From: Gekko japonicus
Taxonomy: Eukaryota
Assembly: GCF_001447785.1 (NCBI RefSeq)
Contig: NW_015167536.1
Span: 372,001-436,000 of the forward strand
Direction of reading: 5' to 3'
DNA: 64,000 nucleotides
In this document: piece after piece, positions 26,070 through 57,795 of the stretch
Numbering within the stretch: the stretch's first letter is position 1
Layout of the letters: each line of letters starts with the position of its first letter
The notes under the pieces: generated by a model
Database searches by the model: none
The model's input: only the letters and a program-made list of their open reading frames with translations
Told to the model about the DNA's origin: nothing
Made by a program: the position numbers and the translations under genes

Positions 26070-26145
<76 letters not shown>
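26066..26145. repeat. (GATA)n microsatellite
   Basis: Direct reading. Confidence 0.97.
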
Positions 26146-26465
26146 CAACCTTCATGGAAAGATTACGTCCTACCATACAGTGTATACACTCCACAGATAG
26201 ATAGACAGATGCAATCTACAGAAGGCATGATTCCTTGCTCATCTATATAAGGGCCGAGGGCAGATATACCTAAGCACACACTCCCACGCTACATGTAGGT
26301 AGGTATGCATTAAGGCAGAGTGTTCTAACTTGTGTTTAGACTGGGCACATCTACCGTTTTATACATCTTTTCTTCTCTCTCTCTTCTTCCCCCTCTCCCT
26401 CTGCCTCTCTGTGTGCTCTTTTATTTCTTGGCATTCGTGCCAGAATGGGAAAGTGGTTTTATTGT

Positions 26466-34462: not shown

Positions 34463-34824
34463 TTATAACCTCGTAATATCCTCTGCTCGTTGGTCCTGAG
34501 ATGAGCTTTGCGAGTGCTCTTCGCTGGCCCCCGGGTTGGAAGAAGCAGCCGCCGCGGCCATGGAGCCGGTGGAAGAATTGCTCGGCGCCGTCGACCGCAC
34601 TTTGGTATTGGGCAGCCGGTGGTCTTTTTTCCATTTCATCCGCCGGTTCTGAAACCAGATCTTGATCTGTCTCTCCGAGAGACACAAGGAATGGGCGATC
34701 TCGATGCGCCTCCGCCTCGTCAGGTATCTGTTATAGTGGAACTCTTTCTCTAATTCCAAGACCTGCTGTCTGGTGTAGGCAGTCCTGGATCGCTTGGGCT
34801 CGCCTCCATTGTAATTGGGGTTCA
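34463..34824 (-). CDS. HOXC4: Homeobox protein Hox-C4, exon 2 (homeodomain)
   Basis: Acceptor ttcccctccccag|TG. Encodes [77 protein letters not shown]...QRAEDITRL*. The C-terminus is diagnostic of HoxC4. Confidence 0.98.
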
Positions 34825-36773: not shown

Positions 36774-38030
36774 TTTGGAGTTCTCTGCGAAAAAGCTCAT
36801 CAGCCTTTGCTTAAGGGCGAGCTGATTTGGTAGAGAGGAGCTGGTATAGTTGTGAATGAAAGCAAGACAACTCCTTACCCGGACAGATGGCAGGATCCCC
36901 ATCCTCCCTCCCTGTTCACCATTTGGGATGGGGGGTTATTGAGAAGAAAGGTGAGCATGTGAGTGAAACTGGGAGATGAGCCATTAAAAAAAAAGATCTG
37001 CTAGGTTTCAGTAGCTGGAAGTTCCTGCTGTCCTTTAGCCAGGCAGAGAAAAACCACACGCAGGTGCCCAGTCCTGTTTGAAGGTAGAGAGGGAAGGAAG
37101 ACGGTCCCCCTACAACCACCACTTCCCTAGGAGAGGCAGATCTGACCCCCCCCCACTCTCCCTGGCAACCACAGATTCTTGGAGAGGTATGTTAAAAATG
37201 CATTCCAGAGCATCTGACTTCCTGGTGGAATCAGGGGTGGTGGGCAGAAGAAATGCCAGGGCAAAGTAAAATAATAATAAATAATAAAAATAATAATAAT
37301 AATCCCCCAACCACCATGTGCCAGGATAAACAGACCCCTGGGTAAGTTAAGGAAGCTGAGCTACGAGGCAAACCTTTTAAAAGAGCGCCGGGATGGCAAG
37401 TTGCAGGGGCTTTTTTTATCTATCGCTTACATTAAGGAGATGGGGCACTGGGAGTCGGATTAATCCCTCGTACGGCTTGATAACAATTATAGTTGAAAAT
37501 CATAGCTTGCAGGGCATTGCCATATTTTACTTGATAACAATAAAAGTGACACATAAAGTTAACTGTTTATGTTTTATTTATTAGACTAAATGTGCCAGCG
37601 GTGTCGGAGGCTCTGGGCTGGTTGTAACAGTTTTTATGGGGCTGTAAAACGCCATAAATCAGTCACTTGGAATGGTTAGGTCTCTCTCGCTCGCTCGCTC
37701 TCCCTCTCCTTCCTCCTCTCTGGCAAAGGCTTGTGTGAGCTTGCGTTTGCGGTTGCTCCTCTTCCTTCTTTCCAAGAAAAGTCATAATTATGATTTTTTT
37801 TTAATGATCAGGAGGAGCACCCTCTGCCTCCCCCCTTTAAAAAACCCAACTCCTTAGTCTAAGGTGGAACAGAGTGGATCTGTCCTGCTTTTTAAGACTT
37901 TTTTTAATTCAAAAGAAAACAACACATAACACCCCCCAGCTCAGATATTTGTAACTTTAATTACAACATCTGCAACTAAGGGGGGGGGGGTGAAAGAGAG
38001 CGGGAGGCTAGCAAGGCTCTGGCGTCATCC

Positions 38031-38100
38031 ATATACTCCCCTAGAGACGAATCTGTGATTGAGGCGGGCACACAAATTCGATTCTACAGGGTATATATAG
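38031..38100 (-). ncRNA. mir-10c: microRNA miR-10 family precursor (miR-10c by position in HoxC)
   Basis: Mature 5p UACCCUGUAGAAUCGAAUUUGUG at 38093-38071 and star arm ACAGAUUCGUCUCUAGGGGAGU at 38056-38035. The arms are complementary, and the locus lies between Hox5 and Hox4 on the Hox strand. Confidence 0.95.
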
Positions 38101-41100
38101 ACGACTGGAGAATCTGGCTTTTGTGGAGCCGAGAGGAGGGGAATAGCCCTTCCCCCCTCCCCAAAGTGATGTCCTCCAGATTCCCCACCCCCAACCCGAG
38201 GATGTTCTGGAAGGGGAGGGGGATTCTCTTTTTAAAAAAAGTCGTCCAGCCAGTTCAGCTCTTTCCAGGGAGGGCACGCTTTGCATATTTCTGATTGGAC
38301 CCAGTCTTTCCTGTTTGGGAACTGGGCCATGGAAGACAACCTCCCTTTCGAAAGGATGGGCTTGGCGTGTGTTCCTCCTATTGGCCTTTTTGTTGAAGGC
38401 TGGATTACCCCCTGCTAAATTCTTGGCTAACTTTACACCTTGCTCCCTCATTGGGGGAGGGGGGTGTTCTCAATCTCGCATTCTAAGGCAATAAGGTTGG
38501 GATCTATCGGCCCAGCCAGCTCGCTACTGATCGATCGATCGATCCAAGAGGAGGGAAAGAATGAGGAGGAGGGGCTCAGCCCAACAAGAACAGAAATTAT
38601 CTCATAGCCCAGACGTAGGTGGGAAGTGAGATCCCCCCGCCCCTCCCACTTCATAACTTCTGCTTGCAGTAGCTGCACACCTCTCTCTCCCAGTTCAACT
38701 CATTTTACAGGGTTTTTTTCCTTTTCGTCATTTCGCACGTGTTAATGAAGCAGTTTTATTGAATGAAGCAGCTTCCTTTTGCAGTTTCGTCTTAAAAAGC
38801 AATGCTATTAACATATCCATCCATATTTAAGCACATGTCTCATTGTTTCTAATGGGGGAGAGAGAGAGTTTGCAATTGCCACTACTGTTACTGCCTCCGC
38901 TGAGATTACCCTTGCTGCTGCTGTGACTACTACAGCTATTGCTACTACGGCTCCTGCGATCTGGCCCATTTGTAGCTGTTTTTATGGAGATGTAAAATGC
39001 CATGAATCAGTCATTAGCCTGGAACGGTTAAGTCTTCCCCTCCCCCGCCCCCACTCTCACTGAACTAGCTTTCTCAAAGTGTGTTTATGCTTGAGTTGGA
39101 AGCCCCCCCCCCCTTCTACAACGAATTGTGGGGTTAGGATCAGCAGCACCTTCTCCAACGCTGTAACTGCTTCCTACTTGTATAGCGCTTTTTCTCGCTT
39201 GCTTAAAGAGCTCAGAAATCTCATCATCCCAGCTGGGCACACGCTACACCCTTCCCCTCCCCCCAGTCTTCCCCATAAGATGTCCTAGCACGATTTTCCT
39301 CCACATGCCGATCTGTGGAATTGGGCTGTGACCCGTCAAAGTTCAAAGTGAAACAAATGCTGTTCCTCTTTAAGGTGCCACTGGACTTCTGTTTTATTTT
39401 AGAAGTGCTTGACCATACATGGATTGAGACCATTTGCAGAAGGAAGGAAGGAAGGAAGGAAGGAAGTTCCTAATGTGTCCTACATAAATCCAAGTAGGAC
39501 TACTTTTGTGAAGGTATGGTCAGAACAGCACTGTAAAACTGAACAATCAGTTGCTGTTGCATAACAATTCCTGGTTTATGAGAGCAATCCTGATAAATAT
39601 TTAGCAATCATTTGTCTACAAGCTGACTACTACTACTACTATTATCATCGTCGTTGTCATCATCATCATGACCATGGAAGGGAATACAGCTTTGTCATCC
39701 TGGAACCCAATTCCTTGGAAGTTGCCCTACTGTCAGTCTCCAGTAACACACATTTACTTCAAAGCCTTTCTCACAAAACTCTGTGAAATTAACTTCTGGT
39801 AAATGTGCATAAGATCAGACTATGGGATGCCAACAGAGACCGAACATGTGCACATTTACTCGAAAGCAAGCACTTCCGAATACAATGTGCCTTACTCCCA
39901 AATAGGAGCATAAAAGGATTGCTTCTTGAACCATGCTCACCCCGTTTGTGTCTGTATTAACACACAGGCTACCCCAAAGGGGTTGAAAATAACCACTTCC
40001 TTGTTAATTTCAATTAAGTCCCATTTTAATGACCCCTTTGGTTTTATTTTTTCTAAAAATATATATCTAAAGCTTTGTTTTTGAAAGTTTAATTTCCATC
40101 AAAAGATCTTTTTTCAAAAAAAAGTCTGGCGTCCTTGAGTGTTTGGAAGGATTTCCTTTTATTGTCTGTATCAAAGAAGGCTCCAAGGACGTGTGAAAAA
40201 AAATTAGGGGGCAGAAATCTCTTTTGTCTCTAAAGCGTCCCTCCTGCCTCTGTCACACTGGCCTCAGTTTCTCCCAACCAGCAGAACAATGTCAGAAAAA
40301 AGGGGGAAAGAAGAATTTGTGTTTGTTGTTGTTGTTGTTTTGTTTCCCTCCTAAGTGACATCAGCAAAGAGAAATATAACACTTCGATCAAATATATTTT
40401 CTGGCCTTTATTTCCTATCCTAGCCAGGAATCCGGTTGCAACCGTGTATATCTATCTGGTTACCATTTTCAGGACCATTTCAGAGTACAAAGCGCCTCCT
40501 TGACAGTACTGAAGAAAAATAAGCGCTCATTGTCCCTGCGGATTCATTGTGAAAGCTATTACCATACTGACCGCTTGGTAACCTACACCTCTAGCCATTT
40601 GCAATCTGTGCATCTTGGTGGAAAAAAAAGAAGTACCTATTCACCGAGGCTTTGCTATTTCAGGGTTTAGGAATCATCATAGTTATAATACTAATAATAA
40701 TGATTATGCAACCTTCCCCACCCCTTTGCCATGTGAACTGTTTCCTAGTTAAGGTTACACACAACCACCCAACAAGGAGAGGAGAAAGGGGGACACACAC
40801 ACAAAACAATCTGTCCTTAATAGCTGAAATACAGGGGCGCCATGTAGGGAGGGCAACCCCCCTCCAGTATTTCAGACCACACGTGATTAGTCCTCAGAAC
40901 TTAGTACCAATACCTTTGACTATTTTTTAAAAAATCAATATATATATATATACAATATACATATATACAATATATATATATACAATATAATGGGGAAGGT
41001 ATTTAATCTTGAATGTATCCAAGAGGAGGACTTTGAACCTTGCAGTGAATCTTGAGCACTTTGAAGGATCTCCTATCCCTCAAATCGTGCTAAAATTTTA

Positions 41101-41294: not shown

Positions 41295-41800
41295 AATTTG
41301 TAAGCACCGAGGGCCACCAAAACGTTCTCCCCCCCCCCATTTCTCCCCTTCCTAGTCCTCCACCATGCAAAAGACAGGTCTAATCTATGCAAAGAAATAT
41401 GCAAATGTTTAATTGATTTTTCCTTAAATCTGTTGTCACTAAAAGTAATGAGTCGGCGCAAAACGATTTGAATAACCAAAGCATGTCACCAGAAGTAAGA
41501 CACACACACACACACACACACGCACAAGACACACAGGAACAACACATTTTTCTTTTTTAGCCTCTCCAGAAGCTGAAGTCGTGTAAATATTTATCCCACC
41601 GTTTTAAAGCACCGAAGACTAATTCTTCCTGTTTGTTAAAGAAGGAAACATATATATGCAAACAATTTTCTCTTCCTCTTCGAAGGGTCCCCCCCCAGGC
41701 CGCGTTTACCCCCCCCCCTCCCAGGAATTCAATTTTCTTCAAATCTCGTTGAAAGTGGCTTTTTAAAAAGTGGGCGCATTTTAATATTGCTTAGACGGCG

Positions 41801-41817
41801 TGCCCTGAATTTCACCT
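41801..41817 (-). promoter_or_regulatory. Hox4-type 5' DR5 retinoic acid response element
   Basis: Minus strand AGGTGA-AATTC-AGGGCA upstream of miR-10c/HoxC4. Matches the AGGTGA-n5-AGGTCA RARE class 5' of paralog-4 genes with one substitution. Confidence 0.7.
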
Positions 41818-44800
41818 CAACTGTTTGACTTGATCCAATAGGTCACTGCCAAGGAGTTATTGATGGGGAACCTCCATTGATATTTGTCTCCTCGCAAATG
41901 GCCTTTAGATCTTCTAGCGAGTTCAATAACTAGTTATAATGTAGAAGGGAAAAAATGAAGCCTAAAGGCAAACGAATATGATGTTTCATTTTTATGCTGG
42001 AGAAATTGTTGTTGTTGTTGCCCCCCCTTTCCTGCTTCCCCCCTTTCCTTACCCCCAATCCCACCTTTTTCACCCCCTCAGAACAAACAAATGGGGGGGT
42101 GGAATCTGGTTTGGGTGAAAGAGTTCCCCCGCTCGCCCCCTCCTCTCTCCCCCCCCCCTTTCTCCTGAAGTCACCGCTTTGAATCCATATTGCAAATCTC
42201 CTCCATTTATTTATTTATTTGAGGACTAATCGAGGGACCTCAGTTCATGAACTCTTCAAGACTGATCTAGTCGGGCGTCCAAACAATGATTTTCAGCTGG
42301 GTAGGAATCACGTTGGCTTTACCCTTTTTTTAAAGAAAAGTTATATATATATATCTTTAACTATCAATAGATTGAATACAGCTCTAGTGCTTGATCTGGG
42401 AAGGATGGGGATTGAGTTAAGAGGGCACGGTGGTCTCCCGTCTTTCGCAGATACCACGGAGGTCTGAATTCTTTTTTATTCTTTTTTTTTAAAAGATGAG
42501 CAAAGCATCCAACTCTATTAAAATGCTAATTTGAATGCAAATATTGGGGAGAGGGAATTGAAAGGAAACAAAGAAAACATCCGTTTTCTTTTACTTTCCT
42601 GTGGGTCTGTTTGCATCACTGCCTATACTTAAACTCCCTTTCCTTCTAGTTATTGTATATGTTATATTTTAAACCTTTATTTCTGGGTTCCCTCATATTT
42701 GGATCTGGTGGTTGGTCCCCTAGTCATTGGAGATTGAAAATTTGGGAAGACTCTGTCTTTGAGAAAGTGCTTTTCCAGATATAGCTTTCAAAACCTGCTG
42801 CAGAGAGAGAAGAGGGGGGGGCAACTTCCCCAACCCCCACCTTATATATAGAAGGAATTAGTTGCAAAAACAGCAGCACAGCTTCAGAGGAAAACAGTGT
42901 CTTGGGGCAAGGAAAGATTCGGGGGGGAAATGAGAGGAAAAGAATGTAAAAGGAAATGAAAGAAGGAATAGATAGCTTTCTTAGCTGTCCACTACAACGT
43001 CCATCGAGAAGTTGTTCTAACATGGACTGGAAAGATATGCATATTTTAGAGTGCTTTGAGCAGTCCTCAAGAAAAGTCCTTTGGACTTAGGATGCCTCCT
43101 TCCTAGCCCAGTAGCAACATCCATGGGGGTGGAGGTGGGAGACGAGGACATGAGGTTAGGGGGTCTATGAATTGTCTCTGCATCTTGTTCATTTGTTGAT
43201 TAAAGAAAATATTGGGGGTGTGAGAGAGTAGCCAATGCAATGTTGGTTCAAAACAGCCAGGGGGGGGGGGGGGAGACAGGACTTTGATGATACTGGTAGA
43301 GCAACGCAAGTAGTAGTATAACGTTTCATGTTATTAGTGACGTTGAGAAACGGAAGTGTATTTCTGTGTCTTGCGGCTGATTCCCAAGACTGAGTCACAC
43401 GTGCAGAAACATCCCGTCCTGCATGTGCCTCCCTAAGAAAAAACTGCTGTATTGTTAGACATGCTCGCTGGTTGACGACTTTTGTCTGGGACGTTTGGTT
43501 TGTTCAAGTCACCTCTTGATGTTGGGGTGCTTCAGAGATGAACAGGGAAGTAGGGACACGCCAGGATTTACATGCCAACTACCTCCAAGGCAACTTTTTA
43601 GCATCTCCCCTCCCCCATTCTGACCTAACTTGGTTCCAAAACGATATCTGATTCTCCTTCAACGGCCTGGCTTATTTCGTGAGTTCTATCGATTCAAGAG
43701 GTCTCCATAGTTGTGTAGAACTCATCCACTAAACAGTGTGCCCCCGAAATAACAGGGAAACCCCAAGTTAAATGGCACAGGCTGCTACGTTCTACAGAGG
43801 AGTGTGATGTCGGTGGCCACTGCAGCGCTATCCTATGTAGAGTTAGCCCAGACTAAGGCCACTGAAACCAACGGGCTTGGAGTGGGCGTAGCTCTGCCTA
43901 GGGTTGCACTGTGGAGATGTGAGCCTGGAGAGACCAGTCTTTTATGTTCTCCGTCTTCCATTTTGAAGCCAACGAATCTGCCCAACTATCAATATCCTCT
44001 GTCAGTTTCACCATCACAGTGGAAGGCGAATTGGGGAAGGGAATCACGCGGGAGGAGGGGACAATGGGCGTGGTTCTGCTGCCACCGAAATCACCCTTCG
44101 AGCTTGATGCCCTTTGGAATCAGGTGTACGGAAACACGTGCACTCGAAGCCCCTGAAGAGATCGCTTTTTAAACATTTGCAAAGAACTGTTCTTTTGGGT
44201 GACGCTTTCTGTTTAACCCCTTCTCCTATGGATATGTACAAAAAAAAAAGGACACTGTTTTCAAGGATTTTATTTAGGCGTTTCCCAGAACGTCTATGTG
44301 TACCTATAACATCTGTAAACATTCGCCTATATACGGAATATATCCTCGAACTCTACGAGTATTTTGAGCACTTAATCTGGCTCTCTCTCAGGCACATACA
44401 TATATCTGTGTAAATAAACACTGTTAGATACTGACAAGCCAACAGAATGGGGGGGGGGGGCAGAAATGTGCCTAGATGTGCTTCTTCCAACCCACCCCCA
44501 CCCCAAACACTATATGTCAGATTTTATTGGCTGTATTTAGTTATTCTCATTACTTCTATGGACAGTGGGGGCGGGGCGGTGGAACTGAATGATTTGTGAA
44601 CGCAGCGCCCAGCGTTTTTTAAGGAGCTCCATTCATGTATTGGTGAAGGAGTCCGTTCTACGGAGATCTACCCAAACGGCGAGGTCTTTGGAGGATCTGT
44701 AAGAAGAAGGTGTCCTTGGGCAAGGGGGAGAGCCGGTTGGGTTACCGAAAGATCACTCCCGCATTCTTCTTAGTCCCATAACCCTTCCTCTGTCTTGTAC

Positions 44801-47800
44801 AGGACTGAGATTTTCTACCTAATTTGCTCTTCTGATCTATCCCCCCCCCAAAAAAAAGGCACCTACAAAGAAAAGGTTTTTTTGGGGGGGAACATATCGG
44901 TGGTTGTCTAGGAAGATCTTCCTAATTGCCTTTTAATATCAAATGCGTGTTTGAATCCACTGGGGGGGAGGACCCAAACCATCTAGTGAGTTATGTTTTG
45001 AGTCTGGAAACAATGGTGCGTTGTGCTTAAAGAGGAGCCTCGTTATTTGTAATGTTTATTTTTTCTCCCACCAGGGTACTCTCAGTTTAATCTTTCACAG
45101 TGTAATAAACTATTATCTTAGTTAATCCCAAAGGTGAATCCATCAAAACCTTTTAATAAAACGTTTATTAGTTCCAGCAAGTCTGGGAAGGCGGCAAACT
45201 GTAAGTACAGTGCAGCAGGCGGAACTTAAAGAAACTTGGGCTGATGGGGGGAGGATGTTAAATATAAAAGGGGGGGGCGTGTAAATATCTCCCAGCTGAG
45301 GTTGGGGAGGATAATTCTTCAGCATGTTGTCAATTGCAGTTGTCATTAGTCAAGGCCACGGAAGCCAAAGGAGCTGCAGAGAGGTGGACTAGAGAAATCT
45401 CAGGAATGATACACAGGACAGAACCAGGCCTCTGGTGGGGTCAGTCCGGATAAGAAACCCCATGCCTTGCTTTGGAAATTTTTTTTGGGGGGGGCGTGGA
45501 GGAGATACTCCCCCTTTTCAACGCCAGGTTCCTCACCAATACTTTGGGCTCCCTCCCCCATTCAGTGTCTGAACTAGTGGGGATAGGGAAGTGGACTAGA
45601 ATATCAGAAAGCCTCCATTAGGAGACAACAACCGTGATAGGGTGACACCGGAAGGGGGGGAAATTAGTCGCCCGGGAAGATCACCGGGCAGAAGGACAGT
45701 TATGATTCCTCGAAATCATAACTGTAAACTTCAATCTGTTAGTCTCCTTTTGAGCAATCCGGTTGGAATACGTGTCCACCTAATGCTATCTGGTGTAGAT
45801 CCATCATAAGACAGGTTCAACACACCACACTTTTTCTGCTTACACATGACCCAGTGACTTTGAGCGTGGCCTAGGATCTGTCCGCCTTTGCCTATTTTCT
45901 CATCAGCATGACAAAAGAATTAATTTCGACAGCCCGGCTTCCCTCCCTCCCTCCCACCCAAATGAAAGAACACAGATGTAAACCGCCGGACTGTTCGGAG
46001 CAGGTAAACGTATTGTCTTCCTCGGCGGGCCCTGAGCCTTTGAAGCGTGAACCATGAAGCAAGAGAATCACAACGGAGAAGAGACCCGGTTTGGTTTAAT
46101 GAAAACCACAGGCTCGAAAGGCCTGTTGGTAAGTCATTTCCTACGATTATTGAGGCAGTGGTGTCCCCCCCCCCTTTCAAAATCCATAACCAGTAGCTCT
46201 CCAACACATGTGAGACCCGCACACATATATTTCAGAAAAAGAAGGGTAAGAGAGGACTTCTTTCTTTTGCTAGTTTAGTAGGTAGGTAGATGGGTAGGTA
46301 GATGGGTAGGTAGATGGGTAGATAGANNNNNNNNNNNNNNNNNNNNNNNNNNNNNNNNNNNNNNNNNNNNNNNNNNNNNNNNNNNNNNNNNNNNNNNNNN
46401 NNNNNNNNNNNNNNNNNNNNNNNNNNNNNNNNNNNNNNNNNNNNNNNNNNNNNNNNNNNNNNNNNNNNGTGGTTCAACCTTCATGGAATGACCACGTTCT
46501 ACCATAGGGGGTATACACTCCACCCACTCAGGCCCATAAATCAGTCCTAGGTGGCTGTGTAAAAGAGACCCGTTTCCAATCTCTTTTGTTTTCTCCCTTC
46601 AAACATATTATGATCAGGTGTACATATGATCAACAAACTGCGCTCTTTGCGGTGGGGGTTTGGCTCCCCTCGTTCCGAGACGGGCAGCAGATTTACAGGG
46701 TATGTGTGTATTTCTGTTTTGATAGGAACAAACCTCCCCAGGCGGCATACCTTAAGTGGATTTGAGGGGATTGTTTCTCTCGCTGTCCTGTCGTAGCCTC
46801 ACACCAACTTCCAGAGAAGAGGGGAAAGTTCCCTTTTCCCTTGTTAATCACAGCAAGCTATCTCATAAGCCTCAATCTAGGAAGAGAACTAGAATTCTTC
46901 GCAGCCTCCCCCCCAGGAAGCGGGGGAGCCCCCCCCCCATCTCCCAAGGTTCTGCTCAGAGTCTCTGCTTCAGTCGTCCTGTTTAGTGCGAAATAAAGTT
47001 ACTGTCCGGGGGAGGCAGGCTGGTCCGCCTGGCGCATCCATCTTCGCTACCAAGGGGGCTCTTCCAACCTTATTATTGGTAGCCTCAGAGAAGTCGAAAA
47101 CTGCAAATAAACTCGTCTAGGGAGCCAGGCAGGAGATAGGAAGCGTTTGTTTAAAGCCAAGACGAGCGCAATCTTTCCCCCACCAAAGCACCGAGGGAGT
47201 TTATGGCACCCACCCACCCACTGCCCTCTTCTCTCTCCCCCCCCCCCCTTTCCTTCTCGTTTCATCTTTTCACACAGGCACCTTTGAGGAGAGGAAGGGA
47301 AAGCAAAGGGCTGGCCGAGCGGTGGAATTTACAACCTCCCAGCCCCCCATCTCCCCCAGCCCCCGCTTCCTGTGATTAGACAGATCAAACCGGACACCTA
47401 CCTGCGTTTACGACCCCTTCCCTTTCCTGCCTGGAAAGAGCTCCTGTAATAAAAGTCTAGCCACCCGTCACTTTTATTGGAGAGGTGGGGGGAAGGATTC
47501 TAGGTATGGCAGTATACCACCTGGTGAGACACGATCCGGGAGGGGGGAGACCAGGATAATTGTAGGGAAGGGGGGGTGCGACGTTGTTTTTGAAAGTGGG
47601 GATTCCTGTAATCCTAAAGTTTTTCCCCCCCACTGTCCCTCCCCCTCCCAAGCCAGAAAGAAAGTTTCCTGCCTGGAGGGAGGGCTACAGCAGAGGAGCG
47701 TCTCGGCCTCAGACATACTTAAGAGGCTTCCTAAATCTCTTGCAAATGCCTGTAGATTACATTACAGTTCATGTTACTGTTACTGTTTATGTTACAAACT

Positions 47801-54840: not shown

Positions 54841-57795
54841 GGGAGAGTTTTCTAGGTGGGAAACTGCCTCCTTAGTCTCCACGACAGATCCAAGAGCACA
54901 CACCCTGACCCGTGGTATTCCTGGGGGCGGTGGGAGGACGGGGGTCAAAGCCTCAAAGGGAAGGACTTGAGAAGACCGACGCTGCCTTTGAAATTCTGAT
55001 TCACGCCACACTGATGGAACGTCGCATCTCAACCGGAAAAAAAGGTGTCTTCCAAGTTTCCTTCCCTTCCCTTCCCCTCCATCCATGCTTTCCTCCCGCT
55101 GGGCTCTCCGGCCTAGCTCCTGCCTTTCCGGTGCGTCTTCCTGTACCCCCACCTGCCCACCCTACCAAGAAGCAAACTTTCCAGCCCGAGTGCAATGCGC
55201 ATGCACTTTCCTTCCCACCCCCAGCCCCCACCCTTTCCTTTTAAAGCTACGGCTGTCCTCGCCGAAACTTCTTGACAGGACTTTCTCTTGAGGAACAAAC
55301 GTGGCTCGCAACCCGCGACTCCCCCCCCCCCCCGGCCCGCTCCCCCCCCCGGTACGATCCAAGCCTTGCAGAGAAGTGAAGAGAGGGATGAGAGGAGGAG
55401 GAGAGAAGGGGGGGAGTGAAGCAATCTCAGCCTCACCAGTCCCATAAGCGCTGGCTCCTTATCTAATTTTCCACAAGCCCCCGAGGAAGTGAAGGGTGTG
55501 TGCGGGGGGAAGAGGTCTGATCTTGCTTCCTGACGTTCGGCACAGCAAGGCGGCGGAGTGAGCCCGCTCCCCGACCACCGCCACATGCACCCACCCTGAC
55601 GCACGGCACTTTCGCCCCCTGCCCCGGGCTCAAGGTGCAACTGAGCCTCCCCCCCCCCCCAACAAACCCCGAACCCCCCGGGCAACCGGGGGGAGAGGAG
55701 GGAGGGGGGAAGAGAGGAGGGGTGGGGGTGGAAAACCACCGAAATTAACTTACAGATCTCGCCAGGGATCCATTTGAGGAAGATGTACCTTCCCCAACAG
55801 CCGCCCGAGCCGTCGTAATCCGCACTAACTGCCTTGTCCCACCGTCCCAGCATTAAACAGCTCTAGCAGCTGCGATGGTGGACAGTTAAGATTATATATG
55901 ATGTAAATATATTGTGGGTATGTCAGCTCCCCCAAACCATAAAACTTAGTTTAATGACACCACGTGCTCACCGAGAGCCATTCAGGGCCTTTGCTTTGGG
56001 CTATCCACATAAATAACCTTCAAAAGTTTTAAACTACTAAATTCACTTAGAAGCCACGGGTATTTTCGCCTAATGTTCTGAGGGCAAGAGGGGAAAGGCT
56101 TGGCTTTTTAAAGTCCTGGATTATTATTATTTGTTTTTTCCCCCTCCTCCCCCCCTCCCCCGTGTCTCTTTGAAAGCACACAAACATTGGGACTTCGGGT
56201 CTCCCTCCCTCCCTCTCTCTCCCCTTTTCCCCCCCTTCCCTCTCCCTTCCTTTCTGTTTGGAGGCCTTTTTTTAAAAAGTCCCCACTGTGTTGACACACG
56301 GATGACAGTGAAGGTAAGCGATGTTTCATTTCCTTCTTGACTTTGCAAGAGTTCTTTTCGGGAGGAGGGGGCTGGAAAGCAAGCCAAAAAAAAGGGAGGG
56401 GTCGAGGAGGGGGGCTAGGTAGTGAATGCCGAAAAGCCAACGACAAGCCCAACGACCAAATTATTAATCAGTCCTGAAAAATTACTTTTTAAAAAGACAG
56501 GGATAGAGGCCCAAATAGTCCCACGTTGTTCGCTGGATAAACGAATAATTAATCATAAGGCTCTGTGTGTGTGTGTGTACTCGGCTGGTTCGCGTTATGG
56601 TAATGGAAAAGTTTGGGCTGCTACACGCGAAGGGGCTCGCTCGCTCTCTCCCTCTCTCTTCTCTCCAACCCCCCCCCCCAAAGATAAAACAAAAAGTGCA
56701 TCTGATTTTGTTAACCCTAACCTGTCAAGCCCAATTATTCTTTTGGCAGACTTCCGATTAAAGGGAAAGGCAAGGCCAAGATTTAAAGAAAAAGAAGGGA
56801 GGGCAAGAAAGCCTTAAGACAAAATAGATCAAAACAGATGTTTGAAAAAGAAAAACACCTTTGGGTTTAAGAGCAGAGTTACCTAGACAGGCATCTTTCT
56901 TTTCTGTTCCTGAGTGGGTTATACACAACTCTCATTTTTCGAACACCGGCAAGATTCTATATCTAGAGCGGTTNNNNNNNNNNNNNNNNNNNNNNNNNNN
57001 NNNNNNNNNNNNTCGGAGATTATAAAGACATACAACAAAAAAGACGGCGGGGGGGGGGGGGGCGATAGCCCTGGATCAGACAAGAAAAGCTAGAGGTTTG
57101 AACCGGTTTACCCTGCTTTTATTGAAAGTGGATGCCTAAACAGACGAGCGAACAAACAAATAAATCGACAAGTTGATCCAGAGAAAGGGGGAAAGAGAGA
57201 CTTTCGAGCGGACTGTAAAATTGCCATAAAAGAAATGGCCATCGCCGTTGTGACAGTACTATCTGATCCTGTCGGGGACTACTCCGTCAAGAACGGCAAT
57301 ACTAATATCAGTGGACTACTAGGAAGAGGACAGGGTGTGTGGGTCGGGGGGACGCCATGCCAATTGGGTGATTTTTATTTTTTTTATTTTTTATTTTTTG
57401 GGAGACTGCTCCAGTGGTGCCCTTAGAAGTTTCCCCCTCGTGAAAAGGAAGGCTTATTTCCAGGTTCAGGAAATTGCTCCATTGTTTGGAACGTGTAAAG
57501 GAAATACTACAAAGGTTTTATGGAGCCATTGAGGGTCCCCCATCCCACCCCGAGTTTGTTTCTACTGTAAATAGTTCTCAAGACAGGGCAGGCCTGAGGG
57601 AGGGAGAGAGAAAGAGGGAGGATGTTTGGTGTATATAGTGAATGCGTGTAGGTTTATTGCTGAACAGGAACACGAACTCTCACACACAAAAAAATACATG
57701 GGCAGCCTCCTTCCGAATGTCCATTGGCCTGTTCCCCTAGTTAAGTCAAACTTTTAGATGCATGGGACAATGTTAAATGCATAAGATGATATAAG

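What the first reader, a model, noticed from the sequence alone, without database searches (positions are those of the whole stretch)
37622..39035. miR-10c is bracketed by a duplicated Hox/Pbx cis-module
Seen: TTGTAACAGTTTTTATGGGGCTGTAAAACGCCATAAATCAGTCA (37622) and TTGTAGCTGTTTTTATGGAGATGTAAAATGCCATGAATCAGTCA (38970) are 38/44 identical without gaps, followed by TGGAAYGGTTARGTCT (14/16). They are direct repeats 1.35 kb apart with the miRNA hairpin between them. Each has TTTTATGG (Hox/Cdx type), TTTTAC and TGATT(T/C)ATGG (Pbx-Hox) in fixed spacing, and the flanks are unrelated. Inference: an old local duplication where only the binding-site core was kept by selection, giving twin auto/cross-regulatory enhancers around miR-10c and HoxC4.
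Basis: partly seen in the sequence, partly recalled or inferred. Interest (0 to 1): 0.7.

Follow-up and report, generated by a model that had tools for sequence, protein, structure and literature searches.

The report
Twin Hox-binding modules flanking miR-10c
Two near-identical 60-base stretches, found nowhere else in this lizard-type genome, sit on either side of the miR-10c gene in front of HoxC4; they are likely duplicated switches bound by Hox, Pbx and Cdx proteins, but their age and activity are untested.

Summary
The 44-base cores at 37622 and 38970 are 38/44 identical without gaps, the tails are 14/16 identical, and the miR-10 hairpin (38028-38100, minus strand) lies between them, upstream of HoxC4. 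The pair is not a transposon: a genome-wide pattern scan found the two copies plus one stray match. It is not a four-cluster paralogous element: the HoxA, B and D intervals lack it, although the same search found three true paralogous landmarks. It is not a shared RNA hairpin either. All six core differences miss the 20 fixed motif positions (P about 0.02, motifs chosen afterwards). About 100 further bases are weakly alike (57/94), which fits an old duplication with a constrained core. The single change inside the Pbx-Hox site switches between two published variants, TGATTTAT (PBX with posterior Hox) and TGATTCAT (HOXA3-selective). Best reading: twin homeodomain-responsive enhancers for HoxC4/miR-10c (about 60%). 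Conservation in other species, binding and activity were not shown. A second genome-unique 43/50 pair without such motifs lies in the same cluster, so a neutral short duplication remains possible. It is a known kind of element, of moderate interest.

The parts
37622..37665 (-). Copy 1 core (nearer HoxC4): Pbx-Hox site TGATTTATGG 37652-37661, TTTTACA 37643-37649, CCATAAAA (Cdx/posterior-Hox type) 37632-37639
   Evidence: sequence; motif reading from passages of PMC7710020 and PMC5896879
37668..37683 (-). Copy 1 tail, 14/16 with the copy 2 tail; factor not identified
   Evidence: the 16-mer pattern has 4 genome matches against 2 for the reversed control
37684..37783 (.). Weakly similar flank of copy 1 (pyrimidine tract and beyond), possible decayed part of the duplicated unit
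   Evidence: 57/94 with 39036-39135
38028..38100 (-). miR-10 family hairpin (miR-10c by its place between HoxC5 and HoxC4)
   Evidence: Rfam RF00104, 57.6 bits; paralogues in two other clusters; passage of PMC9498476
38970..39013 (-). Copy 2 core (upstream of miR-10c): Pbx-Hox site TGATTCATGG 39000-39009, TTTTACA 38991-38997, CCATAAAA 38980-38987
   Evidence: TGATTCAT variant in passages of PMC7769617
39020..39035 (-). Copy 2 tail
39036..39135 (.). Weakly similar flank of copy 2
34580..34765 (-). Homeobox of HoxC4, the likely target gene (YPWM motif of exon 1 at about 35518); gene name recalled from the homeodomain sequence and cluster order

Best explanation
The two 60-base stretches are copies from one local duplication in the HoxC5-HoxC4 spacer, and they likely act as twin DNA enhancers, predicted to be bound by Pbx-Hox dimers plus Cdx or posterior-Hox monomers, that would help set HoxC4/miR-10c expression along the body axis. 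Shown: the homology, uniqueness in the genome, the motifs in register, the absence from HoxA, B and D, and a core better kept than the flank. Inferred: an old event, selection on the core of both copies, binding, enhancer activity and the target gene. The one change in the Pbx-Hox site may tune the copies to different Hox paralogues.
For: 38/44 plus 14/16 identity. Genome-wide, the 30-letter pattern with up to 2 mismatches gives the two copies plus one stray match (31/44 at best, no tail), and the reversed control gives 0. All 6 core differences fall outside 20 fixed motif positions, P 0.019. Core 52/60 against flank 57/94, Fisher P 5e-4. In about 817 kb of the four clusters only 3 Pbx-Hox-like sites have two or more further TTTAT/TTTAC cores within 30 bases, and 2 of the 3 are these copies. 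TGATT(T/C)ATGG occurs 10 times in the clusters against 3 for the reversed word. Published motifs: TGATTTAT is the PBX plus posterior-Hox motif, TTTAT is HOXC9/10 and TTTAC is HOXC13, and HOXC6 binds at Hoxc4-5 in mouse cells (PMC7710020, passages). TGATTCAT is HOXA3-selective with PBX/MEIS (PMC7769617, passages). Each copy matches 8 of 9 letters of the CDX1 seed GYMRTAAAA (PMC5896879, passage).
Against: No sequence from another species was obtained, so constraint is inferred only from the two copies. The motif set was picked after seeing the sequence. No MEIS site (TGACA) lies within either module; the adjacent word is TGACT. The flank likeness is weak and partly compositional (identity 0.61, random 95th percentile 0.60), so the unit may be only about 65 bases long and recent. 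A second genome-unique pair of like identity without these motifs lies in the same cluster (26145-26194 and 46474-46523, 43/50), and 14 two-copy-only pairs were listed across the four clusters, so such duplicates also arise without this motif content.
Confidence: 0.6

Rival explanations
1. One functional element was copied by a short, fairly recent templated duplication; only one copy works and the other drifts neutrally.
For: A comparable genome-unique 43/50 pair without homeodomain motifs exists in this cluster. Local duplicates are common in these repeat-rich clusters (70 same-strand pairs within 5 kb, mostly multi-copy repeats). Flank homology is borderline. Copy 2 has lost the TTTAT core inside its Pbx-Hox site.
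Against: The differences avoid the fixed motif positions (P 0.019). The change in copy 2 gives a documented HOXA3-type site. If the flank is homologous, its distance (0.56) is nearly four times that of the core (0.15).
Confidence: 0.24
2. The copies are duplicated alternative promoters or promoter-proximal elements, one upstream of miR-10c and one between miR-10c and HoxC4.
For: Both face the direction of transcription and lie within about 3.5 kb of HoxC4 exon 1. Paralogous Hox4 loci use upstream promoters whose transcripts carry miR-10 (PMC3185001, abstract and passages; PMC2148072, passages).
Against: The shared sequence is made of homeodomain sites, and I recognised no core-promoter motif by eye. 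In Hoxd4 the apparent start beside miR-10b is a Drosha cut, not a promoter.
Confidence: 0.08
3. The copies act as RNA structure or short reading frames in the pri-miR-10c/HoxC4 transcript.
For: Copy 1 folds into a hairpin on the transcribed strand (z -2.7). Both copies hold an ATG that opens frames of 24 and 58 codons with similar first residues.
Against: Copy 2 does not fold on that strand (z +0.35), and the change in its Pbx-Hox site breaks the stem. In the first ten codons three of five changes alter the residue (read from the sequence). Direct repeats cannot pair into one long stem around the microRNA.
Confidence: 0.04
4. The module is a fragment of a dispersed transposon.
For: The spacer holds transposon-like pieces, one about 330 bases from copy 2 (39338-39399).
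Against: Only two full copies were found in 2.49 Gb (a DNA search found only the query). Each copy has a single partner among the four clusters.
Confidence: 0.02

Closest known systems
Hox-Pbx(-Meis) response elements in Hox clusters (Hoxb1 autoregulatory element type; reviewed in PMC8788451, passages)
   Same: Bipartite TGATNNAT site inside a Hox cluster next to a Hox gene
   Different: One Pbx-Hox site per copy joined to two TTTAT/TTTAC monomer sites; no TGACA MEIS site within the module; the whole module is duplicated 1.35 kb apart
Cdx-binding elements between Hox5 and Hox4, e.g. the 164-bp CDX-bound part of the Hoxa5 mesodermal enhancer (PMC5831783, passage)
   Same: TTTATGG-type sites in a Hox5-Hox4 spacer
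   Different: No sequence match between this module and the HoxA5-A4 spacer of this genome
Paralogous conserved elements of the four Hox clusters (upstream-of-Hox4 DR5 element; element 3' of Hox5)
   Same: Short conserved cores with decayed flanks in the same spacer
   Different: Those are one per cluster and collinear; this pair is two copies within HoxC only
Redundant or duplicated ('shadow') enhancers (concept recalled)
   Same: Two similar modules near one developmental gene
   Different: Activity is not shown; here the two share descent and still align base by base

Membership tests
Hox-Pbx(-Meis) response element | Bipartite TGATNNAT site | tested here: met
   TGATTTATGG at 37652-37661 and TGATTCATGG at 39000-39009; motif as in PMC7769617
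Hox-Pbx(-Meis) response element | MEIS/PREP site TGACA within about 20 bases (common, not universal) | tested here: not met
   Read from the sequence: the adjacent word is TGACT in both copies
Hox-Pbx(-Meis) response element | Conservation across vertebrates | tested here: inconclusive
   No orthologous sequence could be obtained with these tools
Hox-Pbx(-Meis) response element | Cooperative binding and site-dependent enhancer activity | not testable with these tools
   Needs gel shift, ChIP and reporter assays
Cdx/posterior-Hox response element | Clustered TTTAT/TTTAC sites near the GYMRTAAAA seed | tested here: met
   Outer site 8 of 9 in both copies; middle site 8 of 9 and 7 of 9 (sequence against the seed)
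Four-cluster paralogous conserved element | Collinear counterpart in HoxA, B or D | tested here: not met
   None by ungapped scan, blastn or nhmmer, while three true landmarks were found; a 17-base match in HoxB is not collinear
Transposable element | Many dispersed copies | tested here: not met
Structured RNA element | Same fold in both copies on the transcribed strand | tested here: not met
   z -2.7 against +0.35; no Rfam hit other than mir-10

The most novel reading that the evidence does not exclude
An old duplicated Hox-response module whose two copies split the Hox code by one base: the upstream copy (TGATTCAT) reads group-3 proteins such as HoxC3, which lizards keep and mammals lost, and the downstream copy (TGATTTAT) reads Hox6-10/Cdx, together setting the anterior and posterior limits of HoxC4/miR-10c. 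A 17-base match in the HoxB5-B4 spacer would be a relic of the same element.
Probability: 0.12. Interest if true: 0.68.

Novelty: new member of a known kind. Interest (0 to 1): 0.38.

Why it matters
HoxC4 regulation is less well mapped than that of its paralogues (my recollection), and the upstream retinoic-acid element looks degenerate in this cluster, so Hox, Pbx and Cdx inputs may matter more here. If both copies work, they are a ready-made natural pair that differs by one base in the Pbx-Hox site. That gives a compact test of how enhancer duplicates divide paralogue-specific input in a native Hox cluster. If only one works, it is an ordinary Hox conserved element with a stray copy.

Tried and rejected
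Cross-species conservation could not be settled. The run search limited to ChIP libraries listed 2 runs of one study at shares of 0.06-0.07, with no RNA holder listed. Laying them on 37612-39200 gave no laid contig, which is no proof of absence. Metagenome scans: 0 matches for the 30-letter pattern and 16 for a 23-letter pattern. All 16 lack likeness beyond the pattern (at most 29/44), and many lie in long open frames, so they were rejected as chance. Six look-ups of earlier findings gave nothing. Papers: six sequence words gave 0 papers; the other nine searches listed no title or abstract on this pair. The one readable supplement of PMC2080641 held coding alignments only; its two .doc files could not be read. 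Six recalled papers were not held; they include surveys of conserved elements around Hox4 genes that may already list one or both copies. A duplication including the microRNA was rejected: local scores along the diagonal are 14-24 against 93 at the module. An origin in the whole-genome duplications is not supported. The HoxB 17-mer is kept only as a lead (nhmmer E 5.1, not collinear).

Full report
Setting. The window is part of a HoxC cluster read on the minus strand. It holds a group-4 homeobox at about 34.6 kb and a group-5 homeobox at about 60.5 kb. The same contig holds a group-3 homeobox further 3' and groups 6-13 further 5'. Gene and cluster names are my reading of the homeodomain sequences and their order, not an annotation. 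A retained HoxC3 and a miR-10 between HoxC5 and HoxC4 fit a lizard (PMC9498476, passages). Rfam finds one mir-10 hairpin at 38028-38100. A genome search finds miR-10 paralogues before the group-4 genes of two other clusters.

Observation. The two cores are 38/44 identical without gaps, 1348 bases apart, followed after 2 and 6 bases by tails that are 14/16 identical. Self-blastn gives E 5.9e-10. Over 1,633,282 positions of the four clusters (about 817 kb fetched plus the window) no other place exceeds 27/44 for copy 1 or 28/44 for copy 2. The similarity is far beyond chance and includes bases outside the motifs, so shared descent is much more likely than convergence.

Extent and age. To the left of the cores the likeness fades within ten bases (6/10). 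To the right, 100 bases align at 57/94. The score beats dinucleotide shuffles (P 0.002) and was reached by 3 of 3943 and 0 of 3943 real cluster segments. But part is a pyrimidine tract, the first 40 bases alone are not significant (P 0.29), and the identity equals the 95th percentile of random pairs. If the flank is homologous, it has diverged about four times as far as the core (0.56 against 0.15, Fisher P 5e-4), which means an old event and a constrained core. If it is not, the unit is about 65 bases and could be recent. Nothing else aligns on the 1348-base diagonal, so the microRNA was not part of a surviving tandem unit.

Not a transposon. A 30-letter pattern with up to 2 mismatches gives 3 matches in 2.49 Gb: the two copies and a stray one with no tail. 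The tool notes that counts of repeats are lower bounds. Within the clusters each copy has one partner only.

Not a four-cluster element. Ungapped scans, blastn and a two-copy profile found no counterpart in HoxA, B or D (best outside E 2.2). The same comparisons did recover three true paralogous landmarks in this spacer: an element 3' of Hox5 (window 55883-56049), the upstream DR5 element (41774-41866, degenerate in HoxC) and miR-10. One lead remains. The 17-mer TGATTYATGGCRTTTTA has 4 matches in the genome (control 0, about 1.3 expected): the two copies, one site in the HoxB5-B4 spacer in the same orientation (28/44 with copy 2), and one elsewhere (23/44). The pattern was chosen after seeing the HoxB site, its profile E-value is 5.1, and the site lies on the other side of the DR5 landmark. 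I treat it as unproven.

Anatomy. In the direction of transcription each copy reads: 16-base tail, TGAC, a Pbx-Hox site TGATT(T/C)ATGG, two bases, TTTTACA, three bases, and CCATAAAA facing the other way. All six differences miss the 20 fixed motif positions (P 0.019; motifs chosen afterwards). Only 3 places in the four clusters join a Pbx-Hox-like site to two more such cores within 30 bases, and two of them are these copies. From passages of PMC7710020: TGATTTAT is the PBX plus posterior-Hox motif, TTTAT is bound by HOXC9/10, TTTAC by HOXC13, and HOXC6 binds the Hoxc4-5 region. From passages of PMC7769617: TGATTCAT is enriched in HOXA3 peaks and nearly absent from HOXA2 peaks. From a passage of PMC5896879: the CDX1 seed is GYMRTAAAA, which each outer site matches at 8 of 9. 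No TGACA MEIS site lies within either module. The tail has no factor assigned.

Mechanism. Most likely both copies are DNA elements through which Pbx-Hox dimers and Cdx or posterior-Hox monomers act on the HoxC4/miR-10c transcription unit. Binding, sign of effect and target are all inferred. The site variants point more to cross-regulation by other groups than to auto-regulation by Hox4. An RNA reading fails because only copy 1 folds on the transcribed strand (z -2.7 against +0.35). A promoter reading is possible, since Hox4 and miR-10 share upstream promoters at other loci (PMC3185001, abstract and passages; PMC2148072, passages), but I saw nothing promoter-like in the shared bases.

Against my reading. 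A second pair unique in the genome, 43/50 identical, lies at 26145-26194 and 46474-46523 and has no such motifs. One search lists 14 two-copy-only pairs across the clusters, several of them simple or low-copy repeats. Short duplicates of this identity therefore arise here without this motif content.

Literature. Ten searches of the held library showed no paper on this pair, and sequence words gave 0 hits. I also saw passages of PMC4470032, PMC2080641 (supplement search), PMC8788451 and PMC5831783. The main surveys of conserved elements around Hox4 genes, which I know only from recall, were not held, and their tables may already list these copies as conserved elements.

Verdict. This is a real, locus-specific duplication of a motif-dense module. 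It is probably a twin Hox-response enhancer (0.6) and a new member of a known kind. Interest is 0.38, and would be higher if the one-base split of Hox input proves true.

Noticed in passing
window 41774-41866 (-): HoxC counterpart of the upstream-of-Hox4 DR5 element seen in HoxA, B and D (profile E 3.4e-7); its second half-site reads AGGGCA instead of AGGTCA, so it may have lost or changed retinoic-acid response.
   Followed up: partly
window 55883-56049 (-): Element 3' of HoxC5 with counterparts in all four clusters, holding CACGTG and TTTTATGG.
   Followed up: partly
window 26145-26194 and 46474-46523: Second direct repeat pair, 43/50 identical, 20.3 kb apart on either side of HoxC4, with only these two matches in the genome; one copy abuts a GATA microsatellite.
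   Followed up: partly
window 46534-46549: Third GACTGATTTATGG Pbx-Hox site in the same spacer and orientation; the 13-letter word occurs 3 times in the four clusters, all in this spacer, against 0 for the reversed control.
   Followed up: partly
G000:C8362:280326-280369 (L046): HoxB5-B4 site matching 17 bases of the module and 28/44 of copy 2, same orientation but not collinear.
   Followed up: partly
G000:C7826:438768-438790 (L076): Near-palindromic pair of TTTTATGG sites about 1 kb 5' of the HoxC6 homeobox, sharing 13 bases with copy 1.
   Followed up: no
window 39794-39864: 31-base inverted repeat with a 9-base loop, 74% complementary, possibly a small transposon remnant.
   Followed up: no
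G000:C5592 near 138600 (L016) and G000:C7826 near 540300 (L086): The frames of the HoxD3-position and HoxC13-position homeoboxes look odd at their start (a central-type stretch; an off-frame stretch), possibly assembly errors.
   Followed up: no
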